From the IMG/VR virus record IMGVR_UViG_3300035182_001152: DNA of 64,000 nt, one strand, 5' to 3'. This document shows positions 42,143-56,439 of the stretch, one piece after another. The stretch's first letter is position 1. The number at the start of each line of letters is the position of its first letter. The notes beneath the pieces are model-generated. The model worked only from the letters and a program-made list of their open reading frames with translations. It searched no databases and was not told where the DNA came from. The translations under genes and the position numbers were made by a program. This stretch comes from a virus (Duplodnaviria > Caudoviricetes).

Positions 42143-42665
42143 TATCTTCCGAGTCCTTGATGCAGCAGACGCCAAGGACGAGGAGTTCTTCAGGAAGCTG
42201 ACAGATGAGGAACGGAAGGGACTCCAACCGTTCCTCATCTCACGTTGGATGTCTGGTACTTCCAACGCTGCTCAGATCGTCCTAATCAACGAATTCCTCA
42301 ACCCGTACGCGTTTTCACTAACACGACACAAAGAGCTGCTTTGGCAATTGCTAACTGTTGTTAACAGCGGAAGACGGCAGCGTTATGTGTGGAATAAACT
42401 TCCTGCAAAACGTGAGTCGGGGAAGCCAAACGCCCTACGCGCTGTTCGTGAATACTACAAATACAGCACTCGAGATGCAGTTGATGCACTCGAGATTCTC
42501 TCACGCGACCAAGTTATCAACCTTGCAGAACAGCTAGGATGGCAGCCTGATGACATCGCAAAGATCAAACGTGAGTTGAAGGTTGGCAAGGAAACGGATG
42601 ATACTGAAAAGCCGGTGAAGAAAGGCAAGAAAGCCACGCCGGTAGACAACCTACTGGAATATTGA
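42123..42665 (+). CDS. gp62: Clamp loader small subunit, T4 gp62-like
   Basis: PFLISRWMS...LINEFLN...LLWQLL...VREYYKYSTRDA..ALEIL; near gp44. Confidence 0.65.
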   Translation: MVERKLDIFRVLDAADAKDEEFFRKLTDEERKGLQPFLISRWMSGTSNAAQIVLINEFLNPYAFSLTRHKELLWQLLTVVNSGRRQRYVWNKLPAKRESGKPNALRAVREYYKYSTRDAVDALEILSRDQVINLAEQLGWQPDDIAKIKRELKVGKETDDTEKPVKKGKKATPVDNLLEY

Positions 42666-42914
42666 CGGAACACGTATACACCGCGAATGGTCTGCACCCA
42701 TCTCGTAACGTATTCAAGCGAAATGAAAATGGAAGCGTTGTACTAATGCTGACACGTCAGTGCTACGGGGAACCGCATTCAATTTGAAACTCTGCTGGCA
42801 TCTGATGTTGAATATCTGACAGAACACAGATGGAATGTCGACAAGTTGATCACTGAATTCTCCGTGTACGACATTAAGGTGTTGCACGATAGTTCATGGA
42901 TTGACGCTAAGTAA
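42662..42914 (+). pseudogene. Possible frameshifted relic of an HNH/AP2-type endonuclease N-terminus
   Basis: RNVFKRNENGSVVLMLT then +1 frame GNRIQFETLLASDVEYLTEHRW; weak similarity recognised by eye. Confidence 0.35.
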
Positions 42915-42926
42915 GGAACAACACAC

Positions 42927-43652
42927 GTGTTGAGAACAACGCTAGAGCACATGCAAAACACTCGCCGTCCCACAATCGAATCGCGGTTCACATGCCGCGC
43001 GTGCCACAAGGTGTTTGTCCTTGAGGATCGATTCCTGGCGCACGAGTGTAAGCAAATGAAACGTGAGGCAGAGCTGAAGTCTCCCGTCGGACAAATAGCT
43101 CTGCACTATTACCAGCTGTGGATGCGGGCTCAAAAACGTCTACCGCCACCAGCAGGTTCTTTCCTCGCTTCAAAGTACTTTCGCACATTCATTAACTTCG
43201 TCAAGTTCTGTCAACGTGTTGAACTGCCGCGGGTAGAGAAGTTCATTTGGCTAATGGTGACGAAGAACTATCCACCAACAATGTGGATGAACGATGATGT
43301 GTATGCGATTTACTTGGAATTCTGCGATCGAAAGACACCACCTTTGGATCAGGCGACACTATCAATCGATACGCTGATGAAGTATGCGGACACAAATGAA
43401 TTCGAGCTCCATGGGGTGTTTGATAAGATGCCAATCCAGACGATGATTCACCTGATTCAGGTGCGAAAGTTGTCCCCTTGGTTATTGCTATTCAGTAAAT
43501 CGTTCAAGAATGCATTCATCAACAGGACCAATCCTGAGCAGAAAGTGATTCTGGAACACATGATTCGGCCTGAGTATTGGCCGGACAAAATGGCGCAATA
43601 CCCTGCTGAGGTGGCTAAGATCAAGACGCTTGTCACCGCTATGGGGATCTGA
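42927..43652 (+). CDS. Hypothetical protein with C2H2-like zinc finger
   Basis: FTCRACHKVF...FLAHEC. Confidence 0.7.
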   Translation: MLRTTLEHMQNTRRPTIESRFTCRACHKVFVLEDRFLAHECKQMKREAELKSPVGQIALHYYQLWMRAQKRLPPPAGSFLASKYFRTFINFVKFCQRVELPRVEKFIWLMVTKNYPPTMWMNDDVYAIYLEFCDRKTPPLDQATLSIDTLMKYADTNEFELHGVFDKMPIQTMIHLIQVRKLSPWLLLFSKSFKNAFINRTNPEQKVILEHMIRPEYWPDKMAQYPAEVAKIKTLVTAMGI

Positions 43653-43672
43653 CGTACGGTGAGACTGCTGAC

Positions 43673-43679
43673 ATAAATA
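43673..43679 (+). promoter_or_regulatory. Late promoter (ATAAATA) heading the fibre/radical SAM operon
   Basis: ACATAAATA 28 nt upstream of 43708. Confidence 0.7.
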
Positions 43680-43707
43680 AGGTGAACACACTCTATCGAG
43701 GAACGCC

Positions 43708-45036
43708 ATGTCAGCATATCAAATCGACTTCTCAGATCCACTCAAGAATGGTTTTGCCATTTCTGATGGTAGCTTTAACGGCCCAGGTGGCTCCTCTGCA
43801 AATACATCGCTACGGTTGTATGGCCGTGGCGCACGTGAATGGGGTGAGGCAGTTGACGAGGATTTGGTCCGTCTGACTGAAAACTTCGCTGCTGCTTCAG
43901 CACCAAGCGTGCCGATTGCAGGCCAATTCTGGGTTGAATCATCTCTGTACTACCGCGACACATCGCTGGGAAGCGTTCTGCAAGGTTGGTACTTCTACGA
44001 CGTCAATTCTGTAGCAACGAACAAGTGGACACTTCTTGGAGGCACTGGCGTTGTCTCTGGTACAGCTCCTCTGTCGCCAGTTGAAGGACAGTACTACTAT
44101 GACGGTGGTGTTAACCAGCTGCAGGGCTATTTCTCACTTGGCCGCTATGAACCTCTGACATGGGTCACTCGTTCCAGCATGTCAGGTACAGGTGCTCCCG
44201 TATCGCCAGCCGTAGTCCCTCTCCAACAACTTCGTGTGTGGAACGCAGGCACAAGCGCATGGGTTTCCCCTTCTGTCACAGCTGTCACTGGTGGCACCCC
44301 ACCAGTTGGTGCTGTAGTGGGTTCGTTGTGGTTTAACACCACTACAGGTAACCTGCTTGTTTGGACGGGGGCGCAATGGCAACAACTGGTAGGTCCTGCC
44401 ATTTCTGGCGGGACATCAGCTGTCTCTGGTATTCTGAACATGAATACCTACAAGATCACCAACCTCGGCGCCCCGTCAGTTAGTACCGACGCCGCAACCA
44501 AGGGATACGTTGACAGTGTTGTTGGCGGCGTCGGTGGCTTCCTACCGCTAACAGGTGGTAGTCTGGCTGGTCCAGGCAATCTGAGTGTTGGTGGCACGTT
44601 GAACGTTGCAGGACTGGCTACTCTCGGCTCGGGCTACGTAAACTCAACGTTCTACGCTAACGTTGCTACGTTTGGTAGCACGGCAACTTTCAACTCAGGT
44701 CTGACATCTGTTGGTACAATTAACATCACCACTGGTAGCCTAAACGTCGCTGCTGGCGGCGGTAGCTTCAACGGCACGGTCAACGTGAACGGCTACAAGA
44801 TTGTCAATCTTGCAACTGGTACAAACGCCAACGACGCTGTTAACGTAGCACAAATGAATGCTGCCATTGCGGCTGGTGGTGTGGGTGCAACAACACCTGT
44901 AATCTACACCTCAGGCACTTATAAGGCTGGCGACATCTGCATTACCGGCGGTAAGATCTACATAGCAGTCGGTGGCGGTAGCGGTATCGCCCCGGGTGGT
45001 AACTGGAAACAAATCTGGCCTGCAACATACAGCTAA
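43708..45036 (+). CDS. Fibre-like virion protein
   Basis: N-terminal TSLRLYGRG..EWGE...LTENFA...P.P.AGQFW domain (paralog of 53654); Trp repeats; KITNLGAP..STDAATKGYVD and KIVNLATG..NDAVNVAQM fibre motifs. Confidence 0.8.
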   Translation: MSAYQIDFSDPLKNGFAISDGSFNGPGGSSANTSLRLYGRGAREWGEAVDEDLVRLTENFAAASAPSVPIAGQFWVESSLYYRDTSLGSVLQGWYFYDVNSVATNKWTLLGGTGVVSGTAPLSPVEGQYYYDGGVNQLQGYFSLGRYEPLTWVTRSSMSGTGAPVSPAVVPLQQLRVWNAGTSAWVSPSVTAVTGGTPPVGAVVGSLWFNTTTGNLLVWTGAQWQQLVGPAISGGTSAVSGILNMNTYKITNLGAPSVSTDAATKGYVDSVVGGVGGFLPLTGGSLAGPGNLSVGGTLNVAGLATLGSGYVNSTFYANVATFGSTATFNSGLTSVGTINITTGSLNVAAGGGSFNGTVNVNGYKIVNLATGTNANDAVNVAQMNAAIAAGGVGATTPVIYTSGTYKAGDICITGGKIYIAVGGGSGIAPGGNWKQIWPATYS

Positions 45037-45045
45037 AGCATAAAC

Positions 45046-46455
45046 ATGCCTCAAATCTCTACAACAACATCCGTTCCATCTGGATATGTAATCAGCACGA
45101 TGCAATCAGTCATCACTGCACTGATTGCAGCAATGGCAAGCGGCCAGACGGTGTATGCGTCTGACATTCGCTCAATGAACTCGAGTGTCTATGATCTCTG
45201 GCGAACCCACGCTCACACGGTGACAGACCGCCAAGGTATCGACACTTACGGTAACTTGACCGTGTACGGTAGCGGAGGAACGTCTATCGTCAACACCGCT
45301 TCAAACCTTGCGCTTGGCGCCGTGACAACTCCCTCTGGCATCGCTGCAGATCAAGTGATTACAGCCGCAGACATCAACGTGATGATTAACATGGTCAATT
45401 CCATGCAGTCACACACCCATACGATCACTGATAGTATCGGTGCTATATACTCGTCTCCAAACATCAATTTCTATTTCAATGGTTCTCCTAATCTGATCTC
45501 GGGTACAGACAGTGATGGCACTACCGGTGGCGATTATGCGAACATAACGTTTAAGACAGACGGGACGCTATTTCCCGAGGCACGTGGCACGTATTACTAC
45601 GGTGCAGTACAAGCTAACAACTGGATGACAAACAGCCCTGTTGATGCATTAACAGCTACAGGTTACCAGATTAAGGCACACATGGTAAGCGCAGATCTGG
45701 GGTATTGTCACTGGGGTGCTGGAACGTTTGACGCATGGTTGAATCTTGGTGTTAGTAACCTTGTTTGGTCGTGGGTGCAAAACAACGCGGGCGACTACGG
45801 TCAAGCAGTTGTTCAATTCCAAATCCGCGACATTAACACGCTAACGATTCTTGTTGACACACATGTGACTTTTCAAACCGGCTTTATTGCACCACTATCA
45901 CACTGCTGCTTCCCTGCGGATTCTTTCGTCTTAATGGACGATGGTAAGTGGAAGAAGATTCAAGACGTGAAGGCGGGTGATGTTGCCATGGGTATGGGCA
46001 AGCCCGTGATGATCAACAGCGTAGAGAAGCCACGTCTAGGCGAGCGCAGGATGATGCAATTTGGCGACAAGTCGCTGGCGTGGTCAGAAGAACACGCAAT
46101 GTGGACCCGCGACAACGCAGGTTCACAGTGGTGGTGGTCTGCTAACGCTGATATGTGGCGTGCTGAAGTGAGTGTAGGCGTAATGGGCGGGTTGAAGGAC
46201 AACTCAACGATGCGCTCTGGTACCAATGTGTCTGACTGGGCTCACCTGGATGGCTGGAAGGCTAATACTGTGACTACGATCCCTGCAGACGCAACGACTC
46301 CATTGTATCTCCCACGCACGGGCGGTTCTCCTATTATCGTCAACGGCTACGTTGTTGGCGCTGGTGTTGATGAAACCGGCTTTGAGTACTCAAAGCTGGA
46401 CTGGGATGCTGTACGCGCAATGCTTCCTGTTGTTGACCCACTCCCAACAGCGTAA
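45046..46455 (+). CDS. Hint (Hedgehog/BIL-type) domain protein
   Basis: Hint starts at Cys288 (45907): CFPADSFVLMDDGKWKKIQDVKAGDV; block B-like SEEH; ends IIVNGYVVGA without terminal HN. Confidence 0.8.
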   Translation: MPQISTTTSVPSGYVISTMQSVITALIAAMASGQTVYASDIRSMNSSVYDLWRTHAHTVTDRQGIDTYGNLTVYGSGGTSIVNTASNLALGAVTTPSGIAADQVITAADINVMINMVNSMQSHTHTITDSIGAIYSSPNINFYFNGSPNLISGTDSDGTTGGDYANITFKTDGTLFPEARGTYYYGAVQANNWMTNSPVDALTATGYQIKAHMVSADLGYCHWGAGTFDAWLNLGVSNLVWSWVQNNAGDYGQAVVQFQIRDINTLTILVDTHVTFQTGFIAPLSHCCFPADSFVLMDDGKWKKIQDVKAGDVAMGMGKPVMINSVEKPRLGERRMMQFGDKSLAWSEEHAMWTRDNAGSQWWWSANADMWRAEVSVGVMGGLKDNSTMRSGTNVSDWAHLDGWKANTVTTIPADATTPLYLPRTGGSPIIVNGYVVGAGVDETGFEYSKLDWDAVRAMLPVVDPLPTA

Positions 46456-46476
46456 GGTAATAACGAGGGAACAGAT

Positions 46477-46680
46477 ATGTCAGAAAACCTAAGTACAAAA
46501 ACGACGACATCCCCTGCGGTTCCGAATGTGAACCCAGGAGACCCAATTACGTCTACCACGTTTGAAGCAATGCTGAACGTGTTGAACGAACTCGTGAACC
46601 ACACTCACATTTTCTACGACGACTACAGCACTGCGTGCAACTGTAACTGCAACTGCGCCTGTTCACGCGGCATCCTCTAA
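46477..46680 (+). CDS. Cys-rich peptide, candidate radical SAM substrate (C-terminal CNCNCNCAC)
   Basis: GAGGGA SD, 67 aa, five Cys in the last 14 residues, directly upstream of radical SAM genes. Confidence 0.8.
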   Translation: MSENLSTKTTTSPAVPNVNPGDPITSTTFEAMLNVLNELVNHTHIFYDDYSTACNCNCNCACSRGIL

Positions 46681-46698
46681 CAGAGGCGTTATAACCAT

Positions 46699-47595
46699 AT
46701 GAAATACATCCTTGTTCGCCAAGGAGGTAATCGTGCTTCTGCCTTCTCAGACATCGTTGAGCAGGTCAATTATCAAGACGTACCCCAGGTTGGCTTCTAC
46801 ACGCAAGTAGCACCGAGTATGCGGTTAATTCGTAACCGCACTACCGACAATCACGATTCCCCCTTTGCGATTGCCCGATTCCACGTCGACCCAGCACTGA
46901 AGGTCCAGCCTCCGTCACACTTTCGTCGAATTGACATGAGGGCTGTCGAACGGATGATGACAAACCACAAGTACGTGATATACGGTGTCGTCAATCCAAC
47001 TCACCACGTAATTGATCACACAGTCCTTGACGGTGCTGTGTACGTCGCGCGGGATGCTGACGGTAAGTTGATCAATGCCCAAACAGGAGATGTCCTTGGT
47101 GACTCCAAGGTAACGTTTATGACGGTGTTCTTTGCGTTTGTGCGCGTCAAGGGGTTGCCGATCTATCTGATGGTACTCAATCCAAATCTACTCAGTGCGA
47201 CGGATGGGTTTGATTGTTATCACGAAGAAACGGACACCAAGTGGATCATGTTGCCGGAACGTGACAACGCGCTGATCGAGCGAGTGTTTACGCCGCAAAT
47301 ATATGACGGCACGTTGATTGGTAATGTGATTGTGCGCGATGAGGGTGATGGACAGCCGATGATCCAACTGTTCAACGATCCATGCGGCATCCTGTACGAC
47401 GAAAAGCACCTTCGCTCTGATGTGTTCATTAACGGTGTCGCAACGATTGATACCAATCTAAGCGTGTTTACAATGGACGGCGCTGTCCGCATTAGCAGTC
47501 AAGGCCGTGGGTACGTTCGAATTGTATTTGACCTTGGTGACTACTTCAATCTGTCACGGACCGAACACCCTGCACTGGAGTACGTCGTACTATGA
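46699..47595 (+). CDS. Hypothetical protein in radical SAM operon
   Basis: 298 aa; GAGG SD; stop overlaps next ATG. Confidence 0.75.
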   Translation: MKYILVRQGGNRASAFSDIVEQVNYQDVPQVGFYTQVAPSMRLIRNRTTDNHDSPFAIARFHVDPALKVQPPSHFRRIDMRAVERMMTNHKYVIYGVVNPTHHVIDHTVLDGAVYVARDADGKLINAQTGDVLGDSKVTFMTVFFAFVRVKGLPIYLMVLNPNLLSATDGFDCYHEETDTKWIMLPERDNALIERVFTPQIYDGTLIGNVIVRDEGDGQPMIQLFNDPCGILYDEKHLRSDVFINGVATIDTNLSVFTMDGAVRISSQGRGYVRIVFDLGDYFNLSRTEHPALEYVVL

Positions 47596-49262
47596 GCACA
47601 GCTGTCATTAAGTTCTACCCAAAGCGAACACTAACGCAAGCCCAACAGCAACGGATTGTTGATCACCAACCTTCCGTGCGAATCAATGACGACGGCACAT
47701 TTGATACGTCTGTCCGCACAATCATCACCCCAAAAGGCGATGTCAAGGAGGTGTCGTATAAGACGATTCGTCCAGGTGTGCACGAGCGAATGATGAAGAC
47801 AGCTGACGTATATGACTTGTTTGAAGACCTTCAACACATGAACCTGATTGTCACAAACGCGTGTAACCTCAGTTGTTCCTACTGCTACGAGCAGCATAAC
47901 AAAGATTACGGTCGATTCACAAACGAAAGCCTAAAACAGCTATACAACTTCCTCGTCGCGTGCAACCCAAACAGCGGCAAGCTGTTTCAGTTCTTTGGTG
48001 GCGAACCCCTGATCCACAAGCAGTTGATTCTCGATTTTATCGCCAAATATCGTGACGAACTGCAGGCAAACAGTAAGACAACTGCCGTTAGCATTATCAC
48101 CAACGGTATTCTGTTAACGCCAGAATTCATCAACGAGTACTTTGCGAATGACTTCGTTTGTATGAGCGTTAGCCTCGATACGGATGATGCTGAGATTGAT
48201 CACCGTGAGATTGGCCAGGCTCGGATCGACAAAATCATCAACATGATTGGTCTAATCCCCTCGTACCACAAAGACAATCATATGGTTAGCGTCCGTTGCA
48301 CGATCGCAATGGAGAATGCTCCGCGGCTAGTTGAGTTCGCCAAACGCTTGTATGACAAGGGTCTTCGAGCAATGGTAATTCATCCGCTGACGATGAGTTC
48401 CGTTAACGGCCACATGATATGGAATACTGAAGATTGGAACAACCTCCACACTAGCGTTAGCCACATCATCAAGACGCTGCCTAACTTCGAGGTTCAATTC
48501 TCAGAGGGTGTCGGTGCCAAGGGCGGCAACAACTGCATGGTTGGTTCTGACATGATCGCTGTTGACGCGTCGGGTGATTACTCCGGTTGCCATTTCTTCA
48601 CAAACCAGAAGGAGGCGGCCGCTCATACGATCCTTGGTAACTTGCTGCTGGACCAAGTGTACGTTGACCGGTACATGAAGTTCCAAGAAACGTACGACCA
48701 GATGTTCACATCGGAGCCACAATGTCAAGCCTGCGATCTCAAGGGTTTCTGCTACCAATGCCCTGCAGGCAATTCTGATTCTGGTCGTGGCCAGCTGTTC
48801 CGGCCAGACGATATGTGCCAGAGCATTGTACGTCTGTTCCTCGAACTGCAGAATGACATCGTGCGCAAGACATTCAACGCTAAGCTACAGGAGCTGATTG
48901 GTTCTGTACAGCAGTACGGTGAACACTATGTGTTCAGTAAGGCAATTGTACACCTCCACCACTTCTACAAGAATGGTCAGCATGCCACTGACGTTCAAGT
49001 TGATCCCAACCTCCCATACGAATACCTCGCCGCCGGTTTTATGGCAACAATTACCGGTGGCGACGCTAGCGTTCCGGTTGACATCAAGAGTTTGTATGAG
49101 GCGTTGATGCGCAGTAAGGGCAAACCAGTTAACGCGAGTATGGCACAGGGTACAGCTGATGACATCAACAAGCGTATCTTCTACCTAGCCCTACTACACA
49201 TGGTTGTGCTGAACAAGAAGGGTGATGACTTGTCAAAACCGCACAAAATCATTAAGCTGTAA
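47592..49262 (+). CDS. Radical SAM/SPASM maturase 1
   Basis: CNLSCSYC, FFGGEP, ITNG, NNC...GDYSGCH, CQACDLKGFCYQC...C. Confidence 0.93.
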   Translation: MSTAVIKFYPKRTLTQAQQQRIVDHQPSVRINDDGTFDTSVRTIITPKGDVKEVSYKTIRPGVHERMMKTADVYDLFEDLQHMNLIVTNACNLSCSYCYEQHNKDYGRFTNESLKQLYNFLVACNPNSGKLFQFFGGEPLIHKQLILDFIAKYRDELQANSKTTAVSIITNGILLTPEFINEYFANDFVCMSVSLDTDDAEIDHREIGQARIDKIINMIGLIPSYHKDNHMVSVRCTIAMENAPRLVEFAKRLYDKGLRAMVIHPLTMSSVNGHMIWNTEDWNNLHTSVSHIIKTLPNFEVQFSEGVGAKGGNNCMVGSDMIAVDASGDYSGCHFFTNQKEAAAHTILGNLLLDQVYVDRYMKFQETYDQMFTSEPQCQACDLKGFCYQCPAGNSDSGRGQLFRPDDMCQSIVRLFLELQNDIVRKTFNAKLQELIGSVQQYGEHYVFSKAIVHLHHFYKNGQHATDVQVDPNLPYEYLAAGFMATITGGDASVPVDIKSLYEALMRSKGKPVNASMAQGTADDINKRIFYLALLHMVVLNKKGDDLSKPHKIIKL

Positions 49263-50050
49263 TGATGAAAACAACACACATTGCATTTTACCAAGACGCT
49301 CTGTACGACTGTCCTCTTCTCCGTGGTCAGGTGCTAACCGATATCGACGACCTGCGACTGTTCATGGAATATCACGCATTCGCAGTGTGGGATTTCATGT
49401 CGCTGATCAAATCGCTCCAGAACCATATTGTACCGTCGGGCAATGTGTGGCTTCCGTCACCCGAATCGACAGCTGTTGGTCGATTGATCAACGAAATTGT
49501 CCTGTGCGAGGAAACAGACGACAACCTCGGCGGTGGTCATATTAGCCACTTCGATCTGTACATCACTGCGATGAATGAAGTTGGCGCCAACACAAAGCCG
49601 ATCCTGTCATTCATCAACAAACTGCGAACCAATCGCAAGCTCAGCTTAAACCAGTTGCTGCTAGAACTCCCTCTGCCAGCACGGAAGTTCTGTGAGAGTA
49701 CTTTTGCAGTAATTGCTACCGATCAACCCCATAAGATTGCCGGGGCGTTCGCCTTTGGTCGCGAACGGGTAATCCCGTCAATGTTCACGCAGATCCTCTC
49801 TCAGATGGAGGCCACTGGAATCCAAGCACCAAAGTTCAAGTACTACCTTGAGCGTCACATTGACGTTGACGGGAACGCACACGGCCCAGCTGCGCTTGAT
49901 ATGGTTGATTATCTGTGTGGGGATGACCCAGTCAAGCACCTGGAAGCGGAACGAGCTGCATTGGATGCAATCCACGCTCGGATCACGCTATGGAAGGACG
50001 TACAGCGAGTGATTGAAGACGTCAAGCGTGTCAAGTTTGGAGCAGCATGA
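49262..50050 (+). CDS. DUF3050-like heme-oxygenase-fold diiron oxidase (HDO)
   Basis: FMEYHAFAVWDFMSL, INEIVLCEETD, SHFDLY, FAFGRE..IP, YYLERHIDVDGNAHG. Confidence 0.82.
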   Translation: MMKTTHIAFYQDALYDCPLLRGQVLTDIDDLRLFMEYHAFAVWDFMSLIKSLQNHIVPSGNVWLPSPESTAVGRLINEIVLCEETDDNLGGGHISHFDLYITAMNEVGANTKPILSFINKLRTNRKLSLNQLLLELPLPARKFCESTFAVIATDQPHKIAGAFAFGRERVIPSMFTQILSQMEATGIQAPKFKYYLERHIDVDGNAHGPAALDMVDYLCGDDPVKHLEAERAALDAIHARITLWKDVQRVIEDVKRVKFGAA

Positions 50051-51120
50051 CGACACCAACACTCTCCGGATGCAAGAATATCAGCATCTACCTCGGCAAT
50101 GTTTGCAACTTCAATTGCACATATTGTGACAGAGACTACATCAAGGAGTCGATCGGTGGTCAACATATGACCACCGAGGATATTCCAAAGATCGTTGAGT
50201 TCCTCCAAGCTTCTGGTATAGCTGACAACCCCCCGGAAATGTTTAGCTTCCATGGTGGTGAGCCGTTCACATACGTCAAGATCATGGACAAAATCATGGA
50301 CGCAGTAACGTCAGCTGTCCCTGGCGACTATCCGCTATACATTCAAACGAATGGTAGCCAGATGCTTCAGCATCGATGGTTCTTTGAGAAGTGGGGTAGT
50401 CGCCTTGAGATTAGCATCAGCTACGACTTCTTGTACCAAGACATTAACCGCACCCTGTTTGAGATCAACCCTACGCTGGAAATGTTGAACCAGAACGGTG
50501 TTCGTGGAATCCAGTTCCAATACGTGATGCCAATCTCTAATCCGAAGGTGTTTAGCCTATCAGCATTGAAGGCGATCACTAACTTGTGCCACAAGAACGG
50601 TGTCAAACGGGTTAACCTAATCCCACTGCGGCACATTCGGGGCAAAGACAAGTTCAAGGTGATCCTTGACGACCTTGATATTCCACAGTTCTTCGATGCG
50701 TTCATCAAGTTCATCCACATGCTGTATGTGATGAACATTGACGTTACAGTTGATGGTCACGGTGTTGGATTTGACAAGCACTATTTCTACAACCATAAGT
50801 TAATGGTGTTGTCACCAGATGGTAACATCTATCCCGAATACGACTTCCTCGAATACAAGCGCGAAGAGACGATCATCGGTCAGTGGCGAGAGCAGCAAGT
50901 TATCGAGCGTGTCCGTGATAATGAAGATGACATGCTGCAACCGAAGTGTGTTACGTGCCCATCCCGCCCACTGTGTGGGCTAAAGTACTTACATGGGATG
51001 TTTGGTACTGACCCAGCAACGGATAAGTGTGCGCAGTTCTATCAGATGCTGATGGTTACGATCCAGCACGCACAAAAACTAAAACAACAACCAAGCTTCT
51101 TGCATTGGGTCGGAATATGA
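50047..51120 (+). CDS. Radical SAM protein 2 with partial SPASM domain
   Basis: CNFNCTYC, FHGGEP, QTNG; DGNIYPE (Cys replaced); CVTCPSRPLC...C. Confidence 0.9.
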   Translation: MTTPTLSGCKNISIYLGNVCNFNCTYCDRDYIKESIGGQHMTTEDIPKIVEFLQASGIADNPPEMFSFHGGEPFTYVKIMDKIMDAVTSAVPGDYPLYIQTNGSQMLQHRWFFEKWGSRLEISISYDFLYQDINRTLFEINPTLEMLNQNGVRGIQFQYVMPISNPKVFSLSALKAITNLCHKNGVKRVNLIPLRHIRGKDKFKVILDDLDIPQFFDAFIKFIHMLYVMNIDVTVDGHGVGFDKHYFYNHKLMVLSPDGNIYPEYDFLEYKREETIIGQWREQQVIERVRDNEDDMLQPKCVTCPSRPLCGLKYLHGMFGTDPATDKCAQFYQMLMVTIQHAQKLKQQPSFLHWVGI

Positions 51121-52301
51121 CAACAGAACAACGGCACTTCACACCCAGTGTACAGAACGTAACGAACTTCAAGGAATACTTCCTACAGTACGACGGGTTG
51201 AATCACGTCAGCCAAGAGCTTGGCTTTTCCCTGTTTAAGCGGTACACGTGTAAAGCAGGATGCAAGATGTGTTACTTGCAGAACGACTGGATCGCTGACG
51301 AAGACTTCGGTATCTTCATTCCAAAGGAAATTGACGATCACACTGAAGCTCGCCTTTTGTCATTCTTTGAAGCGTTTTCTGACGTCGGCACGTATGATGA
51401 TTTGGCATATTTGAAACGAGCGCACCCACACCTGTATGAGTTCTACAAGAAGCACAGCCACCGCCTCGTTAATACATCAATGTCAGACACCGCTTTCATT
51501 CAGCAGTACCCACTGCTGATGAATGAGCTCAACTTCAAGGGAATCTACGAGATTACGTTTAGTGATGTGTTCCTAAACAAAAAGAGTGGTGGCTTAGCGC
51601 ATGATATAGTCAATATGCTGAAGCCTCTCCACGCAAAGATGCCCCTGCTAAAGATCAAGGTTGTACGAATCACACAGGAAGGTGAGAAGTCTGATGCCGT
51701 CAAGAAGGTCGTCGACTATGCACACAGTATTGGCATAGCAGTTGGCCTGCAAGACGATATCGTCAAGGGCGACAACAACAAGTTGAGCCTTGATGTTGCT
51801 GACTACCAAGAGCTGAATTATTTCGCTCAAGGGTCTGAGCCGATGCAGGTCCTATCAGAGATTACCTACCTGCAATACACGTCGTCGTTTATGACCCTGA
51901 CCGACACAGTATCGCCAACAAGTGTTCCATTCTTTGATGTATTGTCAACGGACGACATCAGCGTATTCCTGTACAACTCCTTAGATGCTAAGTTAAAGAC
52001 GTACACCCGATACACCAAGGAAATGGATAACACATGCGGCAACAAGCTGTTCGACTACTTTGCGTACGTATCAACGTCGGTTGTGCTACATCCAAAGTTT
52101 AACTTCATCCCCCGGATGTCGCTGAAGCCGTGGACGGCAATGTACCATAAGCTGATAGCTCAGGGTTGGACGGAGACCAAGCTTGGTCTGTATCGACCGA
52201 ACGGTGAGCCAGTGACACCAATCTTTACGATCAGCACAAAGCCAAAGCAGAAAATCTATCACATCCCAATCAAGTGCACTCCTGTAGGAGCAACTGTATG
52301 A
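51117..52301 (+). CDS. Divergent radical SAM-like protein 3
   Basis: CKAGCKMC (CxxxCxxC) near N-terminus; no GGEP or SPASM seen; ATG 51117 overlaps previous TGA. Confidence 0.65.
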   Translation: MTTEQRHFTPSVQNVTNFKEYFLQYDGLNHVSQELGFSLFKRYTCKAGCKMCYLQNDWIADEDFGIFIPKEIDDHTEARLLSFFEAFSDVGTYDDLAYLKRAHPHLYEFYKKHSHRLVNTSMSDTAFIQQYPLLMNELNFKGIYEITFSDVFLNKKSGGLAHDIVNMLKPLHAKMPLLKIKVVRITQEGEKSDAVKKVVDYAHSIGIAVGLQDDIVKGDNNKLSLDVADYQELNYFAQGSEPMQVLSEITYLQYTSSFMTLTDTVSPTSVPFFDVLSTDDISVFLYNSLDAKLKTYTRYTKEMDNTCGNKLFDYFAYVSTSVVLHPKFNFIPRMSLKPWTAMYHKLIAQGWTETKLGLYRPNGEPVTPIFTISTKPKQKIYHIPIKCTPVGATV

Positions 52302-53584
52302 GTCTGACCAAATTTGAGATCGTTCGCACAGGCGAACATTTCTACTACAACAACGAGAACAACGGCTTGCTGGACGCCAACGGTAACAGCCTTAGCCGTG
52401 CTTTTGTACCCCCAGCTGATTGGAATCAGCTGGAAGACCGATTCGGTCGCACAGATGTTGTCAAGAACCCCGAAACAATCAAGATCACCCTGGGGCACGG
52501 TTGCAATTACAGTTGTGGCTACTGCATGCAAAAGGACATTGGCAATCCCGACGAGCGACCGGTCAATGGTCTAACACCAATGCTGATCAGCAAGATCCGC
52601 CGCCACCTGGATCTGTCTGAGACGACACGGATTGAACTGTGGGGCGGTGAAACGCTACTGTATTGGAAAGACATGATGCCGATCATGGAAGAATTTGATC
52701 GTGAGGGAGTTACTTGGTACATCCCAACCAATGGTACTCCCCTGATGCACAAGCACATTGACTTCTTCATGAGGTTGAAGGGCAGGGTTGCAATGGGGAT
52801 CTCTCATGATGGGCCTGCGCATGAGATTACGCGAGGCAAGGAGTTCCTGCACAAGAAGGTTGACGTGTTCAAGCGGATCGAAACGGAGTGTGGTGAGCAG
52901 GTACAGTACAGCTTCAACCCCGTTATCAGTCGTACAAATTACGATCTGTTCGAGATCAACGACTTCTTTGTTCGATTCTTTGACGAGCACAGCTTGAAGT
53001 ACAAACAGCTGAGTTTCGAACTCGGGCGCGTGTACGACGAGACGATGGCAAAGAACTCAACGCACCACGTGATCAATGGTGAGCATATCCCAGCGTATAG
53101 GGACGTTCTGACGCGATACATGGATGCTCATATTGAGCAATTCCAACGGCTTGGTGGGGTTACACAAGCTCCCCTACTGGCGAACAATCTGTTCCATACA
53201 GGCATGGGCGTTCTCCCGTATGTGCGTTCGCTGCAGGAGCAAAAGGTTCCCTTGTTGAAGACGAACTGCGGGGTGGACGACAGTCGGTTGATGAGCATGG
53301 ACACGATGGGCAACGTCCGCACCTGCCAAAACACCGACGAATCGTACAATGGCGGCAACTTGATGTACATCAAGGGCATTCGAATCCAACGTGTTGATCT
53401 CAATCGTGATGCACACTGTGGGTCATGTGAAGTCCGTCGTCTCTGCAAGAGCTCATGCCCACTTGACCTCGGATCGGCAACGTTCCAAACCAATTGTGCT
53501 GTTGAGAAGACGCACTACCGGGCGATCCAGTTGGCTGCATTCAAGTTGTTGTTTGACAGTGAGATTCGCATGATTGGCCAGTGA
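52298..53584 (+). CDS. Radical SAM/SPASM maturase 4
   Basis: CNYSCGYC, LWGGET, PTNG, TNCG...GNVRTC, CGSCEVRRLCKSSCP...C; ATG 52298. Confidence 0.92.
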   Translation: MSLTKFEIVRTGEHFYYNNENNGLLDANGNSLSRAFVPPADWNQLEDRFGRTDVVKNPETIKITLGHGCNYSCGYCMQKDIGNPDERPVNGLTPMLISKIRRHLDLSETTRIELWGGETLLYWKDMMPIMEEFDREGVTWYIPTNGTPLMHKHIDFFMRLKGRVAMGISHDGPAHEITRGKEFLHKKVDVFKRIETECGEQVQYSFNPVISRTNYDLFEINDFFVRFFDEHSLKYKQLSFELGRVYDETMAKNSTHHVINGEHIPAYRDVLTRYMDAHIEQFQRLGGVTQAPLLANNLFHTGMGVLPYVRSLQEQKVPLLKTNCGVDDSRLMSMDTMGNVRTCQNTDESYNGGNLMYIKGIRIQRVDLNRDAHCGSCEVRRLCKSSCPLDLGSATFQTNCAVEKTHYRAIQLAAFKLLFDSEIRMIGQ

Positions 53585-53613
53585 TGTCTGACGGAGAGCG
53601 GATGTGCAAACCC

Positions 53614-53620
53614 ATAAATA
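53614..53620 (+). promoter_or_regulatory. Late promoter (ATAAATA)
   Basis: CCCATAAATA upstream of 53654. Confidence 0.7.
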
Positions 53621-53653
53621 CTCACACATCCATCTCACGGAGTTAGGCATACA

Positions 53654-55465
53654 ATGACCAATTACGTATTCAAGCACAGCGACCCTGCAGCAGGTTCGTT
53701 TCTAGTTCAAGCAGACCAGATCGACGGTACGTCGCGTCCTGGTAATGCGGCATTGTACATCAACCCCGTCTCAGGCCTCTCTGCAATCTCAGCCAATTCC
53801 TCTCTCGTCTTCGCTGGACAGGGAATTGTTGACTACGGCGAACTAGTGCAGAACAATCTGATCTACTTGATGGAGCACTTTGCCTATGCAACACGCCCTC
53901 TAAAGCCTGTACAGGGTCAGATTTGGTACAAAAACGCAGCAGGTGTAGACCCGTCCTTCCCGAGCGACCCATCTTCGGTCGGTCTTTATCTGTGGACAGG
54001 ATCACTCTGGACGCCGATCATTACTGGTGCAGGCGGCGTACTTGACATGGGCGGCGCTCGTGTAGCTAACGTTGGAGATGCAATATCCGCCGGTGACGCA
54101 GTTAGCCGTGGCTACGCAGATGCACGCTACTTGCAGCTGTCTGGCGGCACAATGACCGGTGCAGTTATGGTTGCATCAGGCAACTGGACATTTAATTCCG
54201 GCGTTTCTCTGTCAGTGACAAACGCTCCGACAACCAGTTTGCATGTTGCCAATAAGGCATACGTAGACGCTGCTTCTGCCACGTCTGCCGGCCTAGTTTC
54301 TACTGAAGCTACTACCCGCGCAGCAGCTGATAGCGCACTTTCGTCCAGCATCTCTACGATCAACTCACAACTGCCAAACTTTGTTCAAGTTACTGGCGAT
54401 ACGATGACAGGCACACTGTCGATCGACTCTGGCGGTGGTATCGTTGCCCTCAACGGTTCCGGCACTATTAGTTTTGGCTCTCGTCGCTTGCAGCTCGTCG
54501 GAGACCCTATTCTAAACACTGACGCGGCAAACCGAATCTACGTTGATACAGCGATCGCTACGGCAATTGCGGGCGTTGGCGCTGGATCTAGTGATGGTGT
54601 AGTTGTTAGTGGTGACTTGAATTCATCAACTGGCGTGTTGACTCTTCAGCGCAGCATGGGTCTCTCAGACGTGGTTGTAGTCGGCTCGTTCGCTCCATTC
54701 TCACACGCCCACCCTGCGACCGCGGTTACATACGATCTGTCGTACGTGTATCCACAAAGCTACTTGACGACGTCGGAAGTAGGTGACACAGGCTTCCCCA
54801 ATGTCCAACTGCAAGACATTATTCGCACAATTGACCAAAATTTGACGACATTGAACCGTTGCGTTGTTCGCAAATTGGCCGTCGGCGACGGCATAACTAC
54901 TACATATTCCGTAGGCGCTGTTGGTACCTACACTGTGGGAGATAATCGTCTGCAGGTGTTTGTTGATGGTGTCAAACAGTACGCTAGTGAGCACGGGATC
55001 AGCACTGTTGTATTCACAGATACGGGTATTGGATATCGATCAGTAATCCCAGGCGTCACGGGTGCGCCTCTCGTGTTCAACATCGCAGTGGACAGTGGTC
55101 CTCCAACAACTGTTTCAATTCCAACAGGGGCGGGATACACGTACTTGCAGTATTTCATTGACCTGCAGGCTGCTTTTAGTACACTGTCTATCCCTGCACA
55201 AGTTCGTGCGGACCAATTCTTTGACCGCATTGAGTTGTACTTTGTGTCCAACACTTCAGGTGCAGGATCTAGTGTATTAGTATCAAACACAGCAGGCCAA
55301 GCTTTTACTGTGATTACCACAGCGTCTGCGCCTGTTAACACGTCTGTGACAACGTCATACTCCTACAGCGAAGTCGGCAACCCTGGTGCAGATTCAACCT
55401 CCATCACATTCAACGTAGCACCTGATGCGGGTTCTGTTGTTGAATTTCTAACCTTCCCTGCTTAA
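53654..55465 (+). CDS. Fibre-like virion protein (paralog of 43708)
   Basis: SSLVFAGQG..DYGE...LMEHFA...P.QGQIW; DAVSRGYAD, ANKAYVD, AANRIYVD repeats. Confidence 0.8.
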   Translation: MTNYVFKHSDPAAGSFLVQADQIDGTSRPGNAALYINPVSGLSAISANSSLVFAGQGIVDYGELVQNNLIYLMEHFAYATRPLKPVQGQIWYKNAAGVDPSFPSDPSSVGLYLWTGSLWTPIITGAGGVLDMGGARVANVGDAISAGDAVSRGYADARYLQLSGGTMTGAVMVASGNWTFNSGVSLSVTNAPTTSLHVANKAYVDAASATSAGLVSTEATTRAAADSALSSSISTINSQLPNFVQVTGDTMTGTLSIDSGGGIVALNGSGTISFGSRRLQLVGDPILNTDAANRIYVDTAIATAIAGVGAGSSDGVVVSGDLNSSTGVLTLQRSMGLSDVVVVGSFAPFSHAHPATAVTYDLSYVYPQSYLTTSEVGDTGFPNVQLQDIIRTIDQNLTTLNRCVVRKLAVGDGITTTYSVGAVGTYTVGDNRLQVFVDGVKQYASEHGISTVVFTDTGIGYRSVIPGVTGAPLVFNIAVDSGPPTTVSIPTGAGYTYLQYFIDLQAAFSTLSIPAQVRADQFFDRIELYFVSNTSGAGSSVLVSNTAGQAFTVITTASAPVNTSVTTSYSYSEVGNPGADSTSITFNVAPDAGSVVEFLTFPA

Positions 55466-55466
55466 T

Positions 55467-55850
55467 ATGCGACCACAACACCGTCAGATGCTAGACACCA
55501 TTAAGGCTCTCAGCAGTGAAATTATTCCTGATAACATGACGCGGCAAGAAGATCCAAAGGGCGTGATGGAATGCTCTCTGTATGCTGCCTTGTATCAGGG
55601 AATGTACAACGTTCCACTAGAGATGAACAAATTGATTGAATTCTACGACGAAACTGTCGAAGGATTCTACCATACGATCAATCCGTATATCCTGCTCGGC
55701 TGCGCCCTGGAAATCGTTGACAAGGATGTTGCACTGTCAGTACCTGAAGATATGTTCACATTCACTACACGTCTAATGGATATGTTTGGTCCTTCAATCA
55801 CTGTTGATCAGTTTCTCTATGAGGTTAACCACGATGTCAACTACGTATAA
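55467..55850 (+). CDS. Hypothetical protein
   Basis: 127-aa ORF in operon. Confidence 0.65.
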   Translation: MRPQHRQMLDTIKALSSEIIPDNMTRQEDPKGVMECSLYAALYQGMYNVPLEMNKLIEFYDETVEGFYHTINPYILLGCALEIVDKDVALSVPEDMFTFTTRLMDMFGPSITVDQFLYEVNHDVNYV

Positions 55851-56439
55851 GTGGGTTACTTTGCTGGATAAGCCAAATGCTGTCAAAGTTGGCCGCACAA
55901 TGGGCATTTGTATGGGAAACCCAGCAGATCAATCATACATCCACATGCACGCGGATAGGTTAGTTGCACATTGTCTTGAAGATTCAAACGGCGTTGCGAC
56001 TGCTGTATTCTTCCATCACCCTGAATGGGATGCTGTGTCAGCAATTGGTGGAATTCGTGCCGTACCTTTCAACAATGGTGAATTTGCTGTGGAGTTTTGT
56101 CAACGCTTCAACGAGCTTGGTGTAAAGCGAACGCTTAACTCCTCTGCTCGCAGGGCGGGTTACTGCCAAGTCAACGGTTCGTGGACGAATACTCACTTGT
56201 TTTCAGAGGGGATGGTTGTTGATCATCCCCTTAATTTGACCAACTTTACCCGACTTCACTCCCTACCCGACAACATGACCGTCAACGGTGATCTAATCCT
56301 GGCTCGCACGAGTCTGGTATATCTTCCCAAGAATCTGACCGTCAAAGGAACGCTCGATATTCGGTTCAGTCCAATCTGGACGCGTCCCGAGGGTCTCAAC
56401 GTTGAAAAAATTCGTACACACGCCGGAAAAGTGCTGTAA
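55834..56439 (+). CDS. Hypothetical protein with short LRR-like C-terminal repeats
   Basis: LPDNMTVNGDLIL...LPKNLTVKGTLDI; ATG 55834. Confidence 0.6.
   Translation: MSTTYKWVTLLDKPNAVKVGRTMGICMGNPADQSYIHMHADRLVAHCLEDSNGVATAVFFHHPEWDAVSAIGGIRAVPFNNGEFAVEFCQRFNELGVKRTLNSSARRAGYCQVNGSWTNTHLFSEGMVVDHPLNLTNFTRLHSLPDNMTVNGDLILARTSLVYLPKNLTVKGTLDIRFSPIWTRPEGLNVEKIRTHAGKVL

What the first reader, a model, noticed from the sequence alone, without database searches (positions are those of the whole stretch)
45046..46455. Hedgehog-like autoprocessing protein next to the peptide gene
Seen: Hint begins at Cys288 right after ...APLSHC, and its end lacks the His-Asn needed for C-terminal cleavage or splicing. 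A ~25-aa tail follows. Established: Hog-type Hint domains form a thioester at the N-junction and transfer the N-domain to a nucleophile (cholesterol in Hedgehog). Inference: the 287-aa N-domain, ending in Cys, is released or ligated to a partner, conceivably the modified peptide or another cluster product.
Basis: partly seen in the sequence, partly recalled or inferred. Interest (0 to 1): 0.72.

Follow-up and report, generated by a model that had tools for sequence, protein, structure and literature searches.

The report
Self-cleaving Hint cap on phage fibre
A tail-fibre-type protein of an uncultured giant phage ends in a real intein/Hedgehog-type (Hint) domain that keeps the residues for cutting at its front end but lacks those for cutting at its back end. 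It belongs to a large unnamed family that caps phage fibres and conjugative-pilus adhesins, and it most likely removes itself after the fibre is made.

Summary
ORF 45046-46455 (+) encodes 469 aa, with Cys287-Cys288 at the junction. Residues 288-439 fold as a Hint domain (AF2 pLDDT >95; VIA Z 16.5 to Tetrahymena BIL2, 12.7 to Hedgehog).

- **Domain ends:** Cys288 superposes on intein residue 1. Gly438-Ala439 occupy the His-Asn positions.
- **Family conservation (84 members):** Cys1 84/84, block B Ser/Thr-x-x-His 83/84, never His-Asn. The domain is always C-terminal and followed by a 14-80 aa tail.
- **Family size and partners:** at least 325 clusters at 50% identity. No Pfam or NCBIfam model covers it, and I found no paper on it. 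It sits on many unrelated tail-fibre, collagen-like and PilV/pilin N-domains.

Best reading (about 0.6): a self-removing, N-cleaving maturation cap, functionally like the Peptidase_S74 chaperone of fibres.

The proposed ligation to the neighbouring Cys-array peptide has no support.
- Radical SAM genes follow the Cys array (5/5 loci), not the Hint (0/5 array-less loci).
- One natural ortholog lacks the Hint, ends at the junction and keeps the peptide and radical SAM cassette.
- The Cys at -1 is not conserved among orthologs.

Transfer to some nucleophile is not excluded. The near-universal Thr/Ser/Cys at -1 and the conserved tail remain unexplained.

This scan has reported other Hint caps on phage fibres in other genomes. 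This His-Asn-less subfamily was not among them.

The parts
45046..46455 (+). Whole gene: 469-aa fibre-type protein with a C-terminal Hint domain (P0001)
   Evidence: ORF list and translation. 14 full-length orthologs at 41-54% identity, all starting MPQ.
45046..45435 (+). N-terminal module (aa 1-130): two copies of a helix + His-x-His unit (H55-A-H57 at 45208-45216; H123-T-H125 at 45412-45420)
   Evidence: PHROG 31780, E 2e-13, on residues 5-129. Internal repeat E 1e-5. The same unit forms the first 48 aa of the neighbouring 67-aa peptide, E 6e-5. Mean pairwise identity among orthologs 56%. His-x-His as a metal site of trimeric fibres is from my own knowledge and was not tested here.
45436..45906 (+). 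Variable middle/distal domain (aa 131-287), beta-sandwich, ending ...APLSHC287. This would be the C-terminal end of the mature protein.
   Evidence: Least conserved part among orthologs, 41% mean identity. AF2 predicts a beta-sandwich at pLDDT 60-90. Only generic Ig-like matches, Z < 7.
45907..46362 (+). Hint domain (aa 288-439): Cys288 nucleophile (45907-45909), block B Ser347-Glu-Glu-His350 (46084-46095), Gly438-Ala439 in place of His-Asn (46357-46362)
   Evidence: AF2 pLDDT >95. Foldseek and VIA matches to BIL, intein and Hedgehog Hint domains. Family conservation. Most conserved part among orthologs, 65% mean identity.
46363..46452 (+). C-terminal tail (aa 440-469). The conserved part is G-V-[N/D]-x-x-G-[F/Y]-[D/E]-Y-x-x-L-D-W (440-453).
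   Evidence: High pLDDT (90-97) in the model. D447, Y448 and W453 are conserved in 73-74 of 84 members. Tail length in the family is 14-80 aa, median 27.
43708..45036 (+). Upstream fibre-type gene (442 aa), context
   Evidence: YadA_stalk, E 9e-6, and tail-fibre PHROGs. Syntenic in orthologous loci L003, L004 and L012.
46477..46680 (+). Neighbouring 67-aa protein ending ...HTHIFYDDYSTACNCNCNCACSRGIL (context; the 'peptide gene' of the finding)
   Evidence: Translation. Conserved directly after the Hint gene in L003 and L004, and after the Hint-less ortholog in L012.
46699..53584 (+). Downstream cassette (context): 298-aa unknown, radical SAM, DUF3050, radical SAM, 424-aa unknown, radical SAM
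   Evidence: Pfam and PHROG hits.

Best explanation
P0001 is a fibre-type virion protein made of a conserved N-terminal helix/His-x-His module and a variable distal beta-sandwich. It is synthesised with a C-terminal Hint 'cap'.

Proposed mechanism: after folding, Cys288 attacks the carbonyl of residue 287 in an N-to-S acyl shift, assisted by block B Ser347/His350. The resulting thioester is resolved by water. This releases the mature 287-aa fibre protein with a free C-terminus and a roughly 20-kDa Hint-plus-tail fragment that is not needed in the virion. The domain cannot splice or cut at its own C-terminus, because Gly-Ala replaces His-Asn and there is no C-extein.

Functionally it would be a self-removing maturation or folding module for fibre tips, analogous to the self-cleaving Peptidase_S74 intramolecular chaperone. 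As the most conserved segment next to the most variable one, it could also serve as a conserved 3' handle for swapping fibre tips.

Shown: the fold, the conserved catalytic residues, the missing C-terminal motif, the strictly C-terminal position on unrelated fibre and adhesin proteins, and a natural Hint-less ortholog. Inferred: that cleavage happens, that water is the nucleophile, and the chaperone role.
For: - **Fold and residue mapping:** Z 16.5 to BIL2, 13-14 to inteins, 12.7 to Hedgehog. Residue 288 pairs with residue 1 and residue 439 with the terminal Asn.
- **Catalytic conservation across 84 diverse members (27-63% identity):** Cys1 84/84, Phe2 84/84, Ser/Thr347 83/84, His350 83/84. 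Positions 438/439 are never His/Asn.
- **Position:** always C-terminal, with only 14-80 residues after the fold.
- **N-terminal partners are unrelated fibre or adhesin families:** many tail-fibre PHROGs, Collagen, Collar, GP38, Phage_Tail_Tip, Shufflon_N, pilin N_methyl.
- **Genomic contexts are tail modules or pilus loci:** JWF gp28; a T7-like Providencia phage, after the fibre genes; a jumbo-phage baseplate module, next to a Peptidase_S74 protein; siphophage GpJ modules; SU10-like podophage modules; an R64-type type IVb pilus cluster, after PilV.
- **Selection:** the Hint is the most conserved part among orthologs (65% versus 41% for the adjacent domain), so it is under selection.
- **Natural Hint-less form:** ortholog P0053 stops about where the others have the junction and keeps the whole downstream cassette. 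It was seen in two sequencing runs. A free C-terminus at that point is therefore a viable form of the protein.
- **Junction context:** many members have flexible linkers (PPPPT, GGGGGPT) just before Cys1.
Against: - No experiment or proteomic datum shows cleavage for any member. The papers I could reach do not address it.
- Plain hydrolysis does not explain several conserved features: residue -1 is Thr/Ser/Cys in 78/84 members; Glu349 and Arg334 are near-invariant; a 14-residue conserved tail packs on the domain.
- The trimeric-fibre nature of the N-domain is inferred, not shown.
- The Hint-less ortholog is a single case from metagenomic contigs of unknown viability.
Confidence: 0.6

Rival explanations
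1. Hedgehog-like transfer. The Cys288 thioester is resolved by a specific nucleophile rather than water, so the fibre's C-terminus becomes covalently attached to something. Candidates are a neighbouring chain of the trimer, the 67-aa Cys-array protein or another cassette product, a small molecule, or a host-surface group.
For: The domain has the same motif logic as Hog and B-type BIL domains: N-side chemistry only. Features beyond the minimal catalytic set are conserved: Thr/Ser/Cys at -1 (78/84), Glu349 (82/84 Glu/Asp), Arg334 (83/84) and the tail G-V-N-x-x-G-Y-D-Y-x-x-L-D-W. In 20 of 120 members a Cys array abuts Cys1 directly, so reactive thiols sit next to the thioester. In this phage the array-bearing peptide is the next gene and shares the helix/His-x-His unit with P0001.
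Against: There is no sterol-recognition-size domain, only a 30-aa tail. The module occurs in many loci without peptide, array or radical SAM genes. A Hint-less ortholog keeps the cassette. The peptide has no N-terminal Cys for a native-ligation-type capture. The Cys at -1 is not conserved in orthologs. No candidate acceptor is identified.
Confidence: 0.2
2. Retained, non-cleaving tip domain. The Hint fold has been co-opted as a structural or receptor-binding end domain of the fibre and stays on the virion.
For: It sits at the distal end, where receptor-binding domains lie. It carries a conserved Trp-rich segment (Q-W-W-W-S, residues 361-365) that could bind ligands.
Against: A receptor-binding domain would be expected to vary with host, but this is the most conserved part of the protein. 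It is 50-60% identical across phages with unrelated fibres and across pilus proteins. Invariant Cys1 and Ser/Thr-x-x-His argue for retained catalysis. An ortholog does without the domain.
Confidence: 0.1
3. Selfish or neutral passenger. The Hint module spreads among fibre genes by recombination and removes itself so as not to harm the host protein, as an intein does, without contributing to fibre function.
For: Promiscuous distribution on unrelated N-domains with high module identity. Presence/absence polymorphism among orthologs.
Against: No homing endonuclease or other mobility function lies in or next to it. It is kept in 14 of 15 orthologs that are only 41-54% identical overall. It is restricted to fibre and adhesin C-termini rather than to conserved sites of essential proteins.
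Confidence: 0.1

Closest known systems
B-type bacterial intein-like (BIL) domains (Amitai et al. 2003; Dassa et al. 2004, as summarised in PMC7765530)
   Same: Hint fold. Keeps the N-terminal nucleophile and block B. Lacks the intein C-terminal motif. Found in variable regions of non-conserved surface or secreted proteins. Capable of N-terminal cleavage only by intein-type chemistry.
   Different: No sequence-level membership. P0001 does not hit PF13403 Hint_2 (which, from memory, represents such domains), and only 25 of 84 relatives do so weakly, best E 1.7e-5. This family is strictly C-terminal with its own conserved tail, occurs mainly on phage fibres and pilus adhesins, and has Thr/Ser/Cys at -1.
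Hedgehog / Hog autoprocessing domain (PDB 1at0, 6tyy)
   Same: C-terminal position. Cys-Phe at the start. Thr/Ser-x-x-His. No His-Asn. The thioester at the N-junction is the only chemistry. VIA Z 12.4-12.7.
   Different: Only a 30-aa tail instead of a sterol-recognition region. Residue -1 is Thr/Ser/Cys, not Gly. Structurally closer to BIL2 and mini-inteins (Z 13-16.5). No evidence for a transferred adduct.
Type A BIL / BUBL BIL2 domains (PDB 6y75, 6tmm, 2lwy)
   Same: Best structural matches: Z 16.5 and 13.5, rmsd 2.3-2.4. Small Hint domains without an endonuclease.
   Different: Per the review read, those have a conserved C-terminal His-Asn and can cleave their C-terminus. Here Gly-Ala occupies those positions in the query, and His-Asn never occurs there in the family. 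Sequence identity is about 14%.
Peptidase_S74 intramolecular chaperone of tailspikes and tail fibres (K1F endosialidase, T5 pb1 type)
   Same: A self-removing C-terminal module found on many unrelated phage fibre proteins. In locus L005 an S74-bearing protein and a Hint-bearing fibre protein are adjacent.
   Different: Unrelated fold and chemistry: a Ser-Lys dyad in a trimeric domain versus thioester formation by a Hint fold. The analogy is functional only and is inferred.
Pretoxin HINT (PT-HINT, PF07591) of polymorphic toxins, e.g. the Hint of the 8w20 protein
   Same: The family profile matches the Hint of 8w20_A at E 9e-10, including the Ser-x-x-His block. An N-cleaving Hint inside secreted or surface proteins.
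   Different: PT-HINT precedes a variable toxin domain that it releases. Here only a short conserved tail follows.

Membership tests
Hint (Hedgehog/intein) superfamily | Hint beta-fold | tested here: met
   AF2 pLDDT >95 over 288-469. Foldseek E 4e-6, TM 0.73 to 6y75. VIA Z 16.5, with 75 chains at Z >= 8, all Hint domains in the top 50.
Hint (Hedgehog/intein) superfamily | Nucleophile (Cys/Ser) as first residue, and block B Thr/Ser-x-x-His | tested here: met
   Cys288 pairs with residue 1 of inteins. Cys 84/84, Ser/Thr347 83/84, His350 83/84. The block aligns with T-S-T-T-H of 8w20.
Inteins (class 1-3) | Terminal Asn (usually His-Asn) and a C-extein starting with Cys/Ser/Thr, giving splicing | tested here: not met
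   Gly438-Ala439 occupy the positions of His-Asn. In 84 relatives position 438 is mainly Gly/Ser/Thr and position 439 is Ala/Gly/Ser/Cys, never His-Asn. Only a 14-80 aa tail follows.
Inteins (class 1-3) | Insertion in a conserved site of a conserved host protein, often with a homing endonuclease | tested here: not met
   The domain is at the C-terminal end of unrelated variable fibre proteins. There is no endonuclease domain.
Hedgehog/Hog domain | Hint followed by a sterol- or adduct-recognition region of ~60 or more residues | tested here: not met
   The tail is 30 aa in the query, median 27 in the family.
Hedgehog/Hog domain | Transfer of the N-domain to a nucleophile other than water | not testable with these tools
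   Needs mass spectrometry of the processed protein.
B-type BIL domains | All intein N-side motifs present, C-terminal motif absent, in variable bacterial surface proteins (definition taken from PMC7765530) | tested here: met
   Motif pattern as above. Hosts are variable fibre and adhesin proteins.
B-type BIL domains | Sequence membership (hit to the family model; I took PF13403 Hint_2 as its proxy, from memory) | tested here: inconclusive
   P0001 has no PF13403 hit at E <= 1. 25 of 84 relatives hit weakly, best E 1.7e-5. An Atlas structural neighbour cluster carries PF13403.
Type A BIL domains | Conserved C-terminal His-Asn | tested here: not met
PT-HINT of polymorphic toxins | A variable toxin domain downstream of the Hint | tested here: not met
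   Only a short tail whose first 14 residues are conserved follows. P0001 has no PF07591 hit.
Phage tail fibre / virion fibre protein | Homology of the N-domain to known fibre proteins, or location in a tail module | tested here: inconclusive
   The N-domain hits only PHROG 31780, of unknown function. It is flanked by fibre-like genes. Hint relatives sit on bona fide fibre domains.

The most novel reading that the evidence does not exclude
The Hint does not merely fall off. Its thioester is handed to a defined nucleophile, so the fibre tip ends in a covalent adduct or cross-link. Possibilities are an ester or thioester staple between the three chains using the conserved Thr/Ser/Cys at -1, capture by the adjacent Cys array or the 67-aa array protein, a C-terminal lactone or thiolactone, or acylation of a host-surface group on contact. 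That would be Hedgehog-type protein transfer chemistry operating in phage tails and conjugative pili.
Probability: 0.15. Interest if true: 0.88.

Novelty: new variant of a known kind. Interest (0 to 1): 0.62.

Why it matters
Self-cleaving C-terminal chaperones of phage fibres are known only from the Peptidase_S74 type. A Hint-based module at the same place would be a second, chemically different way of maturing receptor-binding fibres. It is also shared with conjugative-pilus adhesins.

Because the intermediate is a thioester at the very tip of the fibre, the family could also be a natural protein-ligation or covalent-adhesion device, which is testable with simple constructs.

The family is large (at least 325 clusters at 50% identity), has no dedicated Pfam or NCBIfam model, and three cultured phages carry it: Achromobacter JWF and 2-1, and Providencia PSTNGR1. 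Experiments are therefore feasible.

For fibre engineering, knowing that the last ~180 residues are removed, and where, matters for designing chimeric receptor-binding proteins.

The finding also clarifies the neighbouring radical SAM cassette. That cassette tracks the Cys array, which in many relatives is fused directly in front of this Hint.

Tried and rejected
- **Homotrimer prediction:** Complex prediction with three copies of the N-domain (aa 1-287) gave no verdict (score 0.00, partner fold uncertain). It is not used as evidence either way.
- **Middle domain fold:** folding aa 135-287 alone and searching all PDB representatives gave only generic Ig-like/beta-sandwich matches (best Z 6.8). 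No fold assignment is made.
- **Single-sequence PDB search:** phmmer of P0001 against PDB found nothing. Only the family profile did.
- **Nucleotide search:** megablast of the region against 50,697 phage records found no match.
- **Cultured carriers:** tblastn with two different Hint queries found only JWF, 2-1 and PSTNGR1.
- **Whole genome:** none is held for this window. A six-frame HMM scan of the window found only this one copy of the Hint.
- **Literature:** searches for Hint or intein-like domains on tail fibres or pilins, for radical SAM with tail fibres, and for JWF virion data found nothing relevant.
- **Cassette partner homology:** the 298-aa protein after the peptide (P0197) is not detectably related to JWF gp29.
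- **Array phase:** the idea that Cys1 always continues the C-x-C phase of the array is rejected. Cys1 is in phase in JWF-type proteins but out of phase in others.
- **Promoter/terminator scan:** nothing above shuffled background in 42500-56000.
- **True intein or PT-HINT toxin module:** both rejected (see membership tests).
Full report
**Observation**

The ORF 45046-46455 on the + strand is open and encodes 469 residues. All 14 full-length orthologs begin with the same MPQ... start. The junction reads ...APLSH-Cys287|Cys288-FPADSFVLMDDGKW.

Pfam sees only the first ~35 residues of a Hint domain, below the curated thresholds: PF01079 E 0.0024, PF05203 E 0.0062, Vint E 0.06. NCBIfam has nothing. 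A single-sequence search of PDB finds nothing.

The fold is nevertheless clear.
- An AlphaFold2 model built on 44 relatives has pLDDT 90-98 over residues 288-469.
- Foldseek against PDB returns only Hint domains: BIL2 of Tetrahymena (6y75) at E 4e-6 and TM 0.73, the Clostridium thermocellum BIL, gp41-1 and DnaB inteins, and Hedgehog 1at0/6tyy.
- VIA-align gives Z 16.5 (rmsd 2.3, 138 residues) to BIL2, Z 13-14 to mini-inteins and Z 12.7 to Hedgehog.

In these superpositions model residue 288 pairs with residue 1. Model residue 439 pairs with the terminal Asn of gp41-1 (125), Mtu RecA (440), PI-SceI (454) and Prp8. Gly438-Ala439 therefore stand where His-Asn would be. The tail is 30 residues rather than ~25.

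**The family**

A word-indexed search found 62 relatives. An exhaustive phmmer search with residues 280-469 found 325 clusters at 50% identity with E <= 1e-3, of which 77 are below 1e-30.

In an alignment of 84 diverse members (27-63% identical to the query) the conservation is as follows.
- Cys288 and Phe289 are invariant.
- Ser/Thr347 is present in 83/84 and His350 in 83/84. This Ser-Glu-Glu-His aligns with the T-x-x-H block of a solved Hint.
- Arg334 is present in 83/84, and Glu349 is Glu or Asp in 82/84.
- Position 438 is Gly/Ser/Thr in 79/84 and never His. Position 439 is Ala/Gly/Ser in 83/84 (Cys once) and never Asn.

The domain is always at the C-terminus. It is followed by 14-80 residues (median 27), and the first 14 of these are conserved (G-V-N/D-x-x-G-Y-D-Y-x-x-L-D-W).

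No Pfam model covers the family. Members hit Hom_end_hint, Hint, Vint or Hint_2 only through the N-terminal block. I found no paper describing a Hint domain at the end of tail fibres or pilins.

**What it is attached to**

The parts in front of Cys1 are unrelated to each other. They are dominated by fibre and adhesin families: more than a dozen tail-fibre PHROGs, Collagen, Collar, GP38, Phage_Tail_Tip, Gly_rich_2, Shufflon_N (PilV) and pilin N-methylation motifs.

The genomic contexts agree.

| Carrier | Context |
|---|---|
| JWF gp28 | Tail fibre with typical fibre repeats |
| Providencia phage PSTNGR1 (T7-like) | Directly after the fibre genes, before the terminase |
| P0027 | Jumbo-phage baseplate module (PAAR, gp25, 1448-aa fibre), beside a Peptidase_S74 protein |
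| P0050, P0112, P0121 | After GpJ-type tip proteins |
| P0049, P0069 | SU10-type podophage modules |
| P0035 | After a Shufflon_N PilV gene in an R64-type type IVb pilus cluster |
| P0063 | Prepilin-like N-terminus, inside an integrative element |

In the window the gene lies between two fibre-like genes.

Its own N-domain has two copies of a helix + His-x-His unit (internal repeat E 1e-5). These are followed by a variable beta-sandwich.

Among the 15 orthologs the mean pairwise identity is 56% for residues 1-130, 41% for 131-287, 65% for the Hint and 63% for the tail. The Hint is therefore the best conserved part, next to the most variable part.

The Hint of unrelated proteins (P0017, P0018: 58-62% identity) is as close to the query as that of its true orthologs (54-63%). 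The module has therefore been shuffled between fibre genes.

**Relation to the peptide and the radical SAM genes**

The next gene encodes a 67-aa protein ending ...HTHIFYDDYSTACNCNCNCACSRGIL. Its first 48 residues resemble the second helix/His-x-His unit of P0001 (E 6e-5). Three Pfam-recognised radical SAM genes and a DUF3050 gene follow.

In 20 of 120 family members an equivalent Cys array is fused directly in front of Cys1. An example is JWF gp28...QNCNCDCNCNCS|CFPAG.

All five such loci that I could read have a radical SAM gene one to four genes downstream: JWF, P0050, P0121, P0112 and P0193. The JWF triad (Hint-fibre, 240-aa protein, radical SAM) recurs in L008 at 34% and 47% identity. None of five array-less loci has a radical SAM gene nearby: P0027, P0035, P0063, P0049 and PSTNGR1. 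These loci were hand-picked and the sample is small. Still, the pattern says the radical SAM genes go with the array, not with the Hint.

Orthologous loci L003 and L004 repeat the window's order: fibre, Hint protein, 67-68-aa peptide, ~300-aa protein, radical SAM genes.

Most telling is one ortholog, P0053 (263 aa, 42% identical), seen on contigs from two sequencing runs. It ends ...TATITIVANSLP*, about where the others reach the junction. The peptide ORF starts 22 nt later (...CNCNCNCACTRGIL), and the unknown gene, radical SAM and DUF3050 genes follow. It is the only Hint-less one among 15 orthologs. Two things follow. The N-domain with a free C-terminus at that point is a viable product. The cassette does not need the Hint.

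**Mechanism**

The conserved residues are those needed for the first step of intein/Hedgehog chemistry, the N-to-S acyl shift at the bond before Cys1. Everything needed for the later steps of splicing is missing.

I therefore read the domain as an N-cleaving, self-removing cap. Cys288 forms a thioester with the carbonyl of residue 287. The thioester is hydrolysed. The 287-aa fibre protein is released without the 20-kDa Hint-plus-tail.

The closest functional analogue is the self-cleaving Peptidase_S74 intramolecular chaperone, which also ends many unrelated fibres and sits next to a Hint-bearing fibre protein in L005 (review statement). That cleavage occurs, that water is the nucleophile, and that the domain assists folding or assembly are all inferences. 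I put this model at about 0.6.

**What does not fit simple hydrolysis**

- Residue -1 is Thr, Ser or Cys in 78 of 84 members, even though the upstream domains are unrelated.
- Glu349 and Arg334 are almost invariant.
- The tail is conserved and predicted to pack on the domain.
- Position 442 is Asn or Asp in 78 of 84.

These features keep a Hedgehog-like transfer model alive at about 0.2, in which the thioester passes to another chain, to the Cys array or its peptide, or to a small or host molecule. Nothing I could compute identifies an acceptor.

The specific idea of ligation to the neighbouring peptide is weakened by four points: the distribution data, the Hint-less ortholog, the peptide's lack of an N-terminal Cys, and the fact that the Cys at -1 is peculiar to this phage, since orthologs mostly have Thr.

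A retained structural tip domain (0.1) is unlikely, given the invariant catalytic residues and the high conservation across hosts. A purely selfish passenger (0.1) is unlikely, given retention in 14 of 15 diverged orthologs and the absence of any mobility function. Self-removal would, however, make the module a convenient conserved recombination handle.

**Comparison with known families**

The motif pattern is that of B-type BIL domains as summarised in PMC7765530, and of Hog domains. Structurally it is nearest to BIL2 and type A BIL domains and to mini-inteins.

It is not an intein: there is no Asn, no C-extein and no conserved host site. It is not a Hog domain: there is no adduct-recognition region. 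It is not type A BIL: there is no His-Asn. It is not PT-HINT: there is no toxin. Its membership in B-type BIL by sequence is inconclusive.

I class it as a new variant of a known kind: a distinct, unnamed Hint subfamily with a new context and an unexplained link to Cys arrays.

Earlier notes of this scan report other Hint caps on phage fibres in other genomes. Those were described as type A BIL-like. A look-up by sequence found no earlier sighting of this subfamily.

**Limits**

- No whole genome is held for the window.
- The homotrimer prediction gave no verdict.
- The middle domain has only generic fold matches.
- No experimental data on any member could be found.

Noticed in passing
L012:5237-6254 (also L013:1725-2516): A natural ortholog of the Hint protein that lacks the Hint altogether (263 aa, ending ...TATITIVANSLP*). 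The 67-aa Cys-array ORF starts 22 nt after its stop, and the radical SAM/DUF3050 cassette is intact. Seen in two SRA runs.
   Followed up: yes
L001:4077-7598; L008:7001-10621; L009:7001-12043; L010:3508-12946: When a Cys array (CNCNCDC... type) is fused directly in front of Hint Cys1, a radical SAM gene lies 1-4 genes downstream (5 of 5 loci). In 5 array-less Hint loci there is none. The JWF triad of Hint-fibre, 240-aa protein and radical SAM is conserved in L008 (34% and 47% identity).
   Followed up: partly
L007:6303-9044 and L006:8001-9983: The same Hint module occurs in bacterial conjugative type IVb pilus clusters, right after a Shufflon_N PilV gene. It also occurs on a 660-aa protein with a prepilin-type N-terminus inside an integrative element of a Castellaniella chromosome.
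   Followed up: partly
window 45208-45216, 45412-45420 and 46477-46620: P0001 carries two copies of a helix + His-x-His unit (internal repeat E 1e-5). The first 48 residues of the neighbouring 67-aa protein are a third copy (E 6e-5).
   Followed up: yes
window 46363-46371 (aa 440-442): Three residues after the structural end of the Hint fold there is an Asn (51/84) or Asp (27/84; Asp in this phage). Whether it sheds the short tail by cyclisation is unknown.
   Followed up: no
L009:1241-5203: The GpJ-type central tail-fibre protein (1320 aa) of the same prophage that carries a collagen-Hint protein also has a weak precomputed Pfam Hint hit. One tail module may therefore hold more than one Hint-bearing protein.
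   Followed up: no
L003:1824-2378 and L003:19297-19353: In the orthologous giant-phage contig the fibre/Hint/radical SAM block lies between genes with DNA polymerase III alpha fragments (DNA_pol3_alpha, DNA_pol3_finger), UvsW and a clamp-loader-like AAA protein. It sits inside a replication gene region rather than a classical tail module.
   Followed up: no
window 45046-45435 (aa 1-130): In BFVD a 125-aa protein of Ralstonia jumbo phage RP12 (A0A1L7N0Q6) matches the model at 34% identity, TM 0.71. It probably matches the N-terminal PHROG 31780 module, so this module also exists as a free-standing small protein.
   Followed up: no
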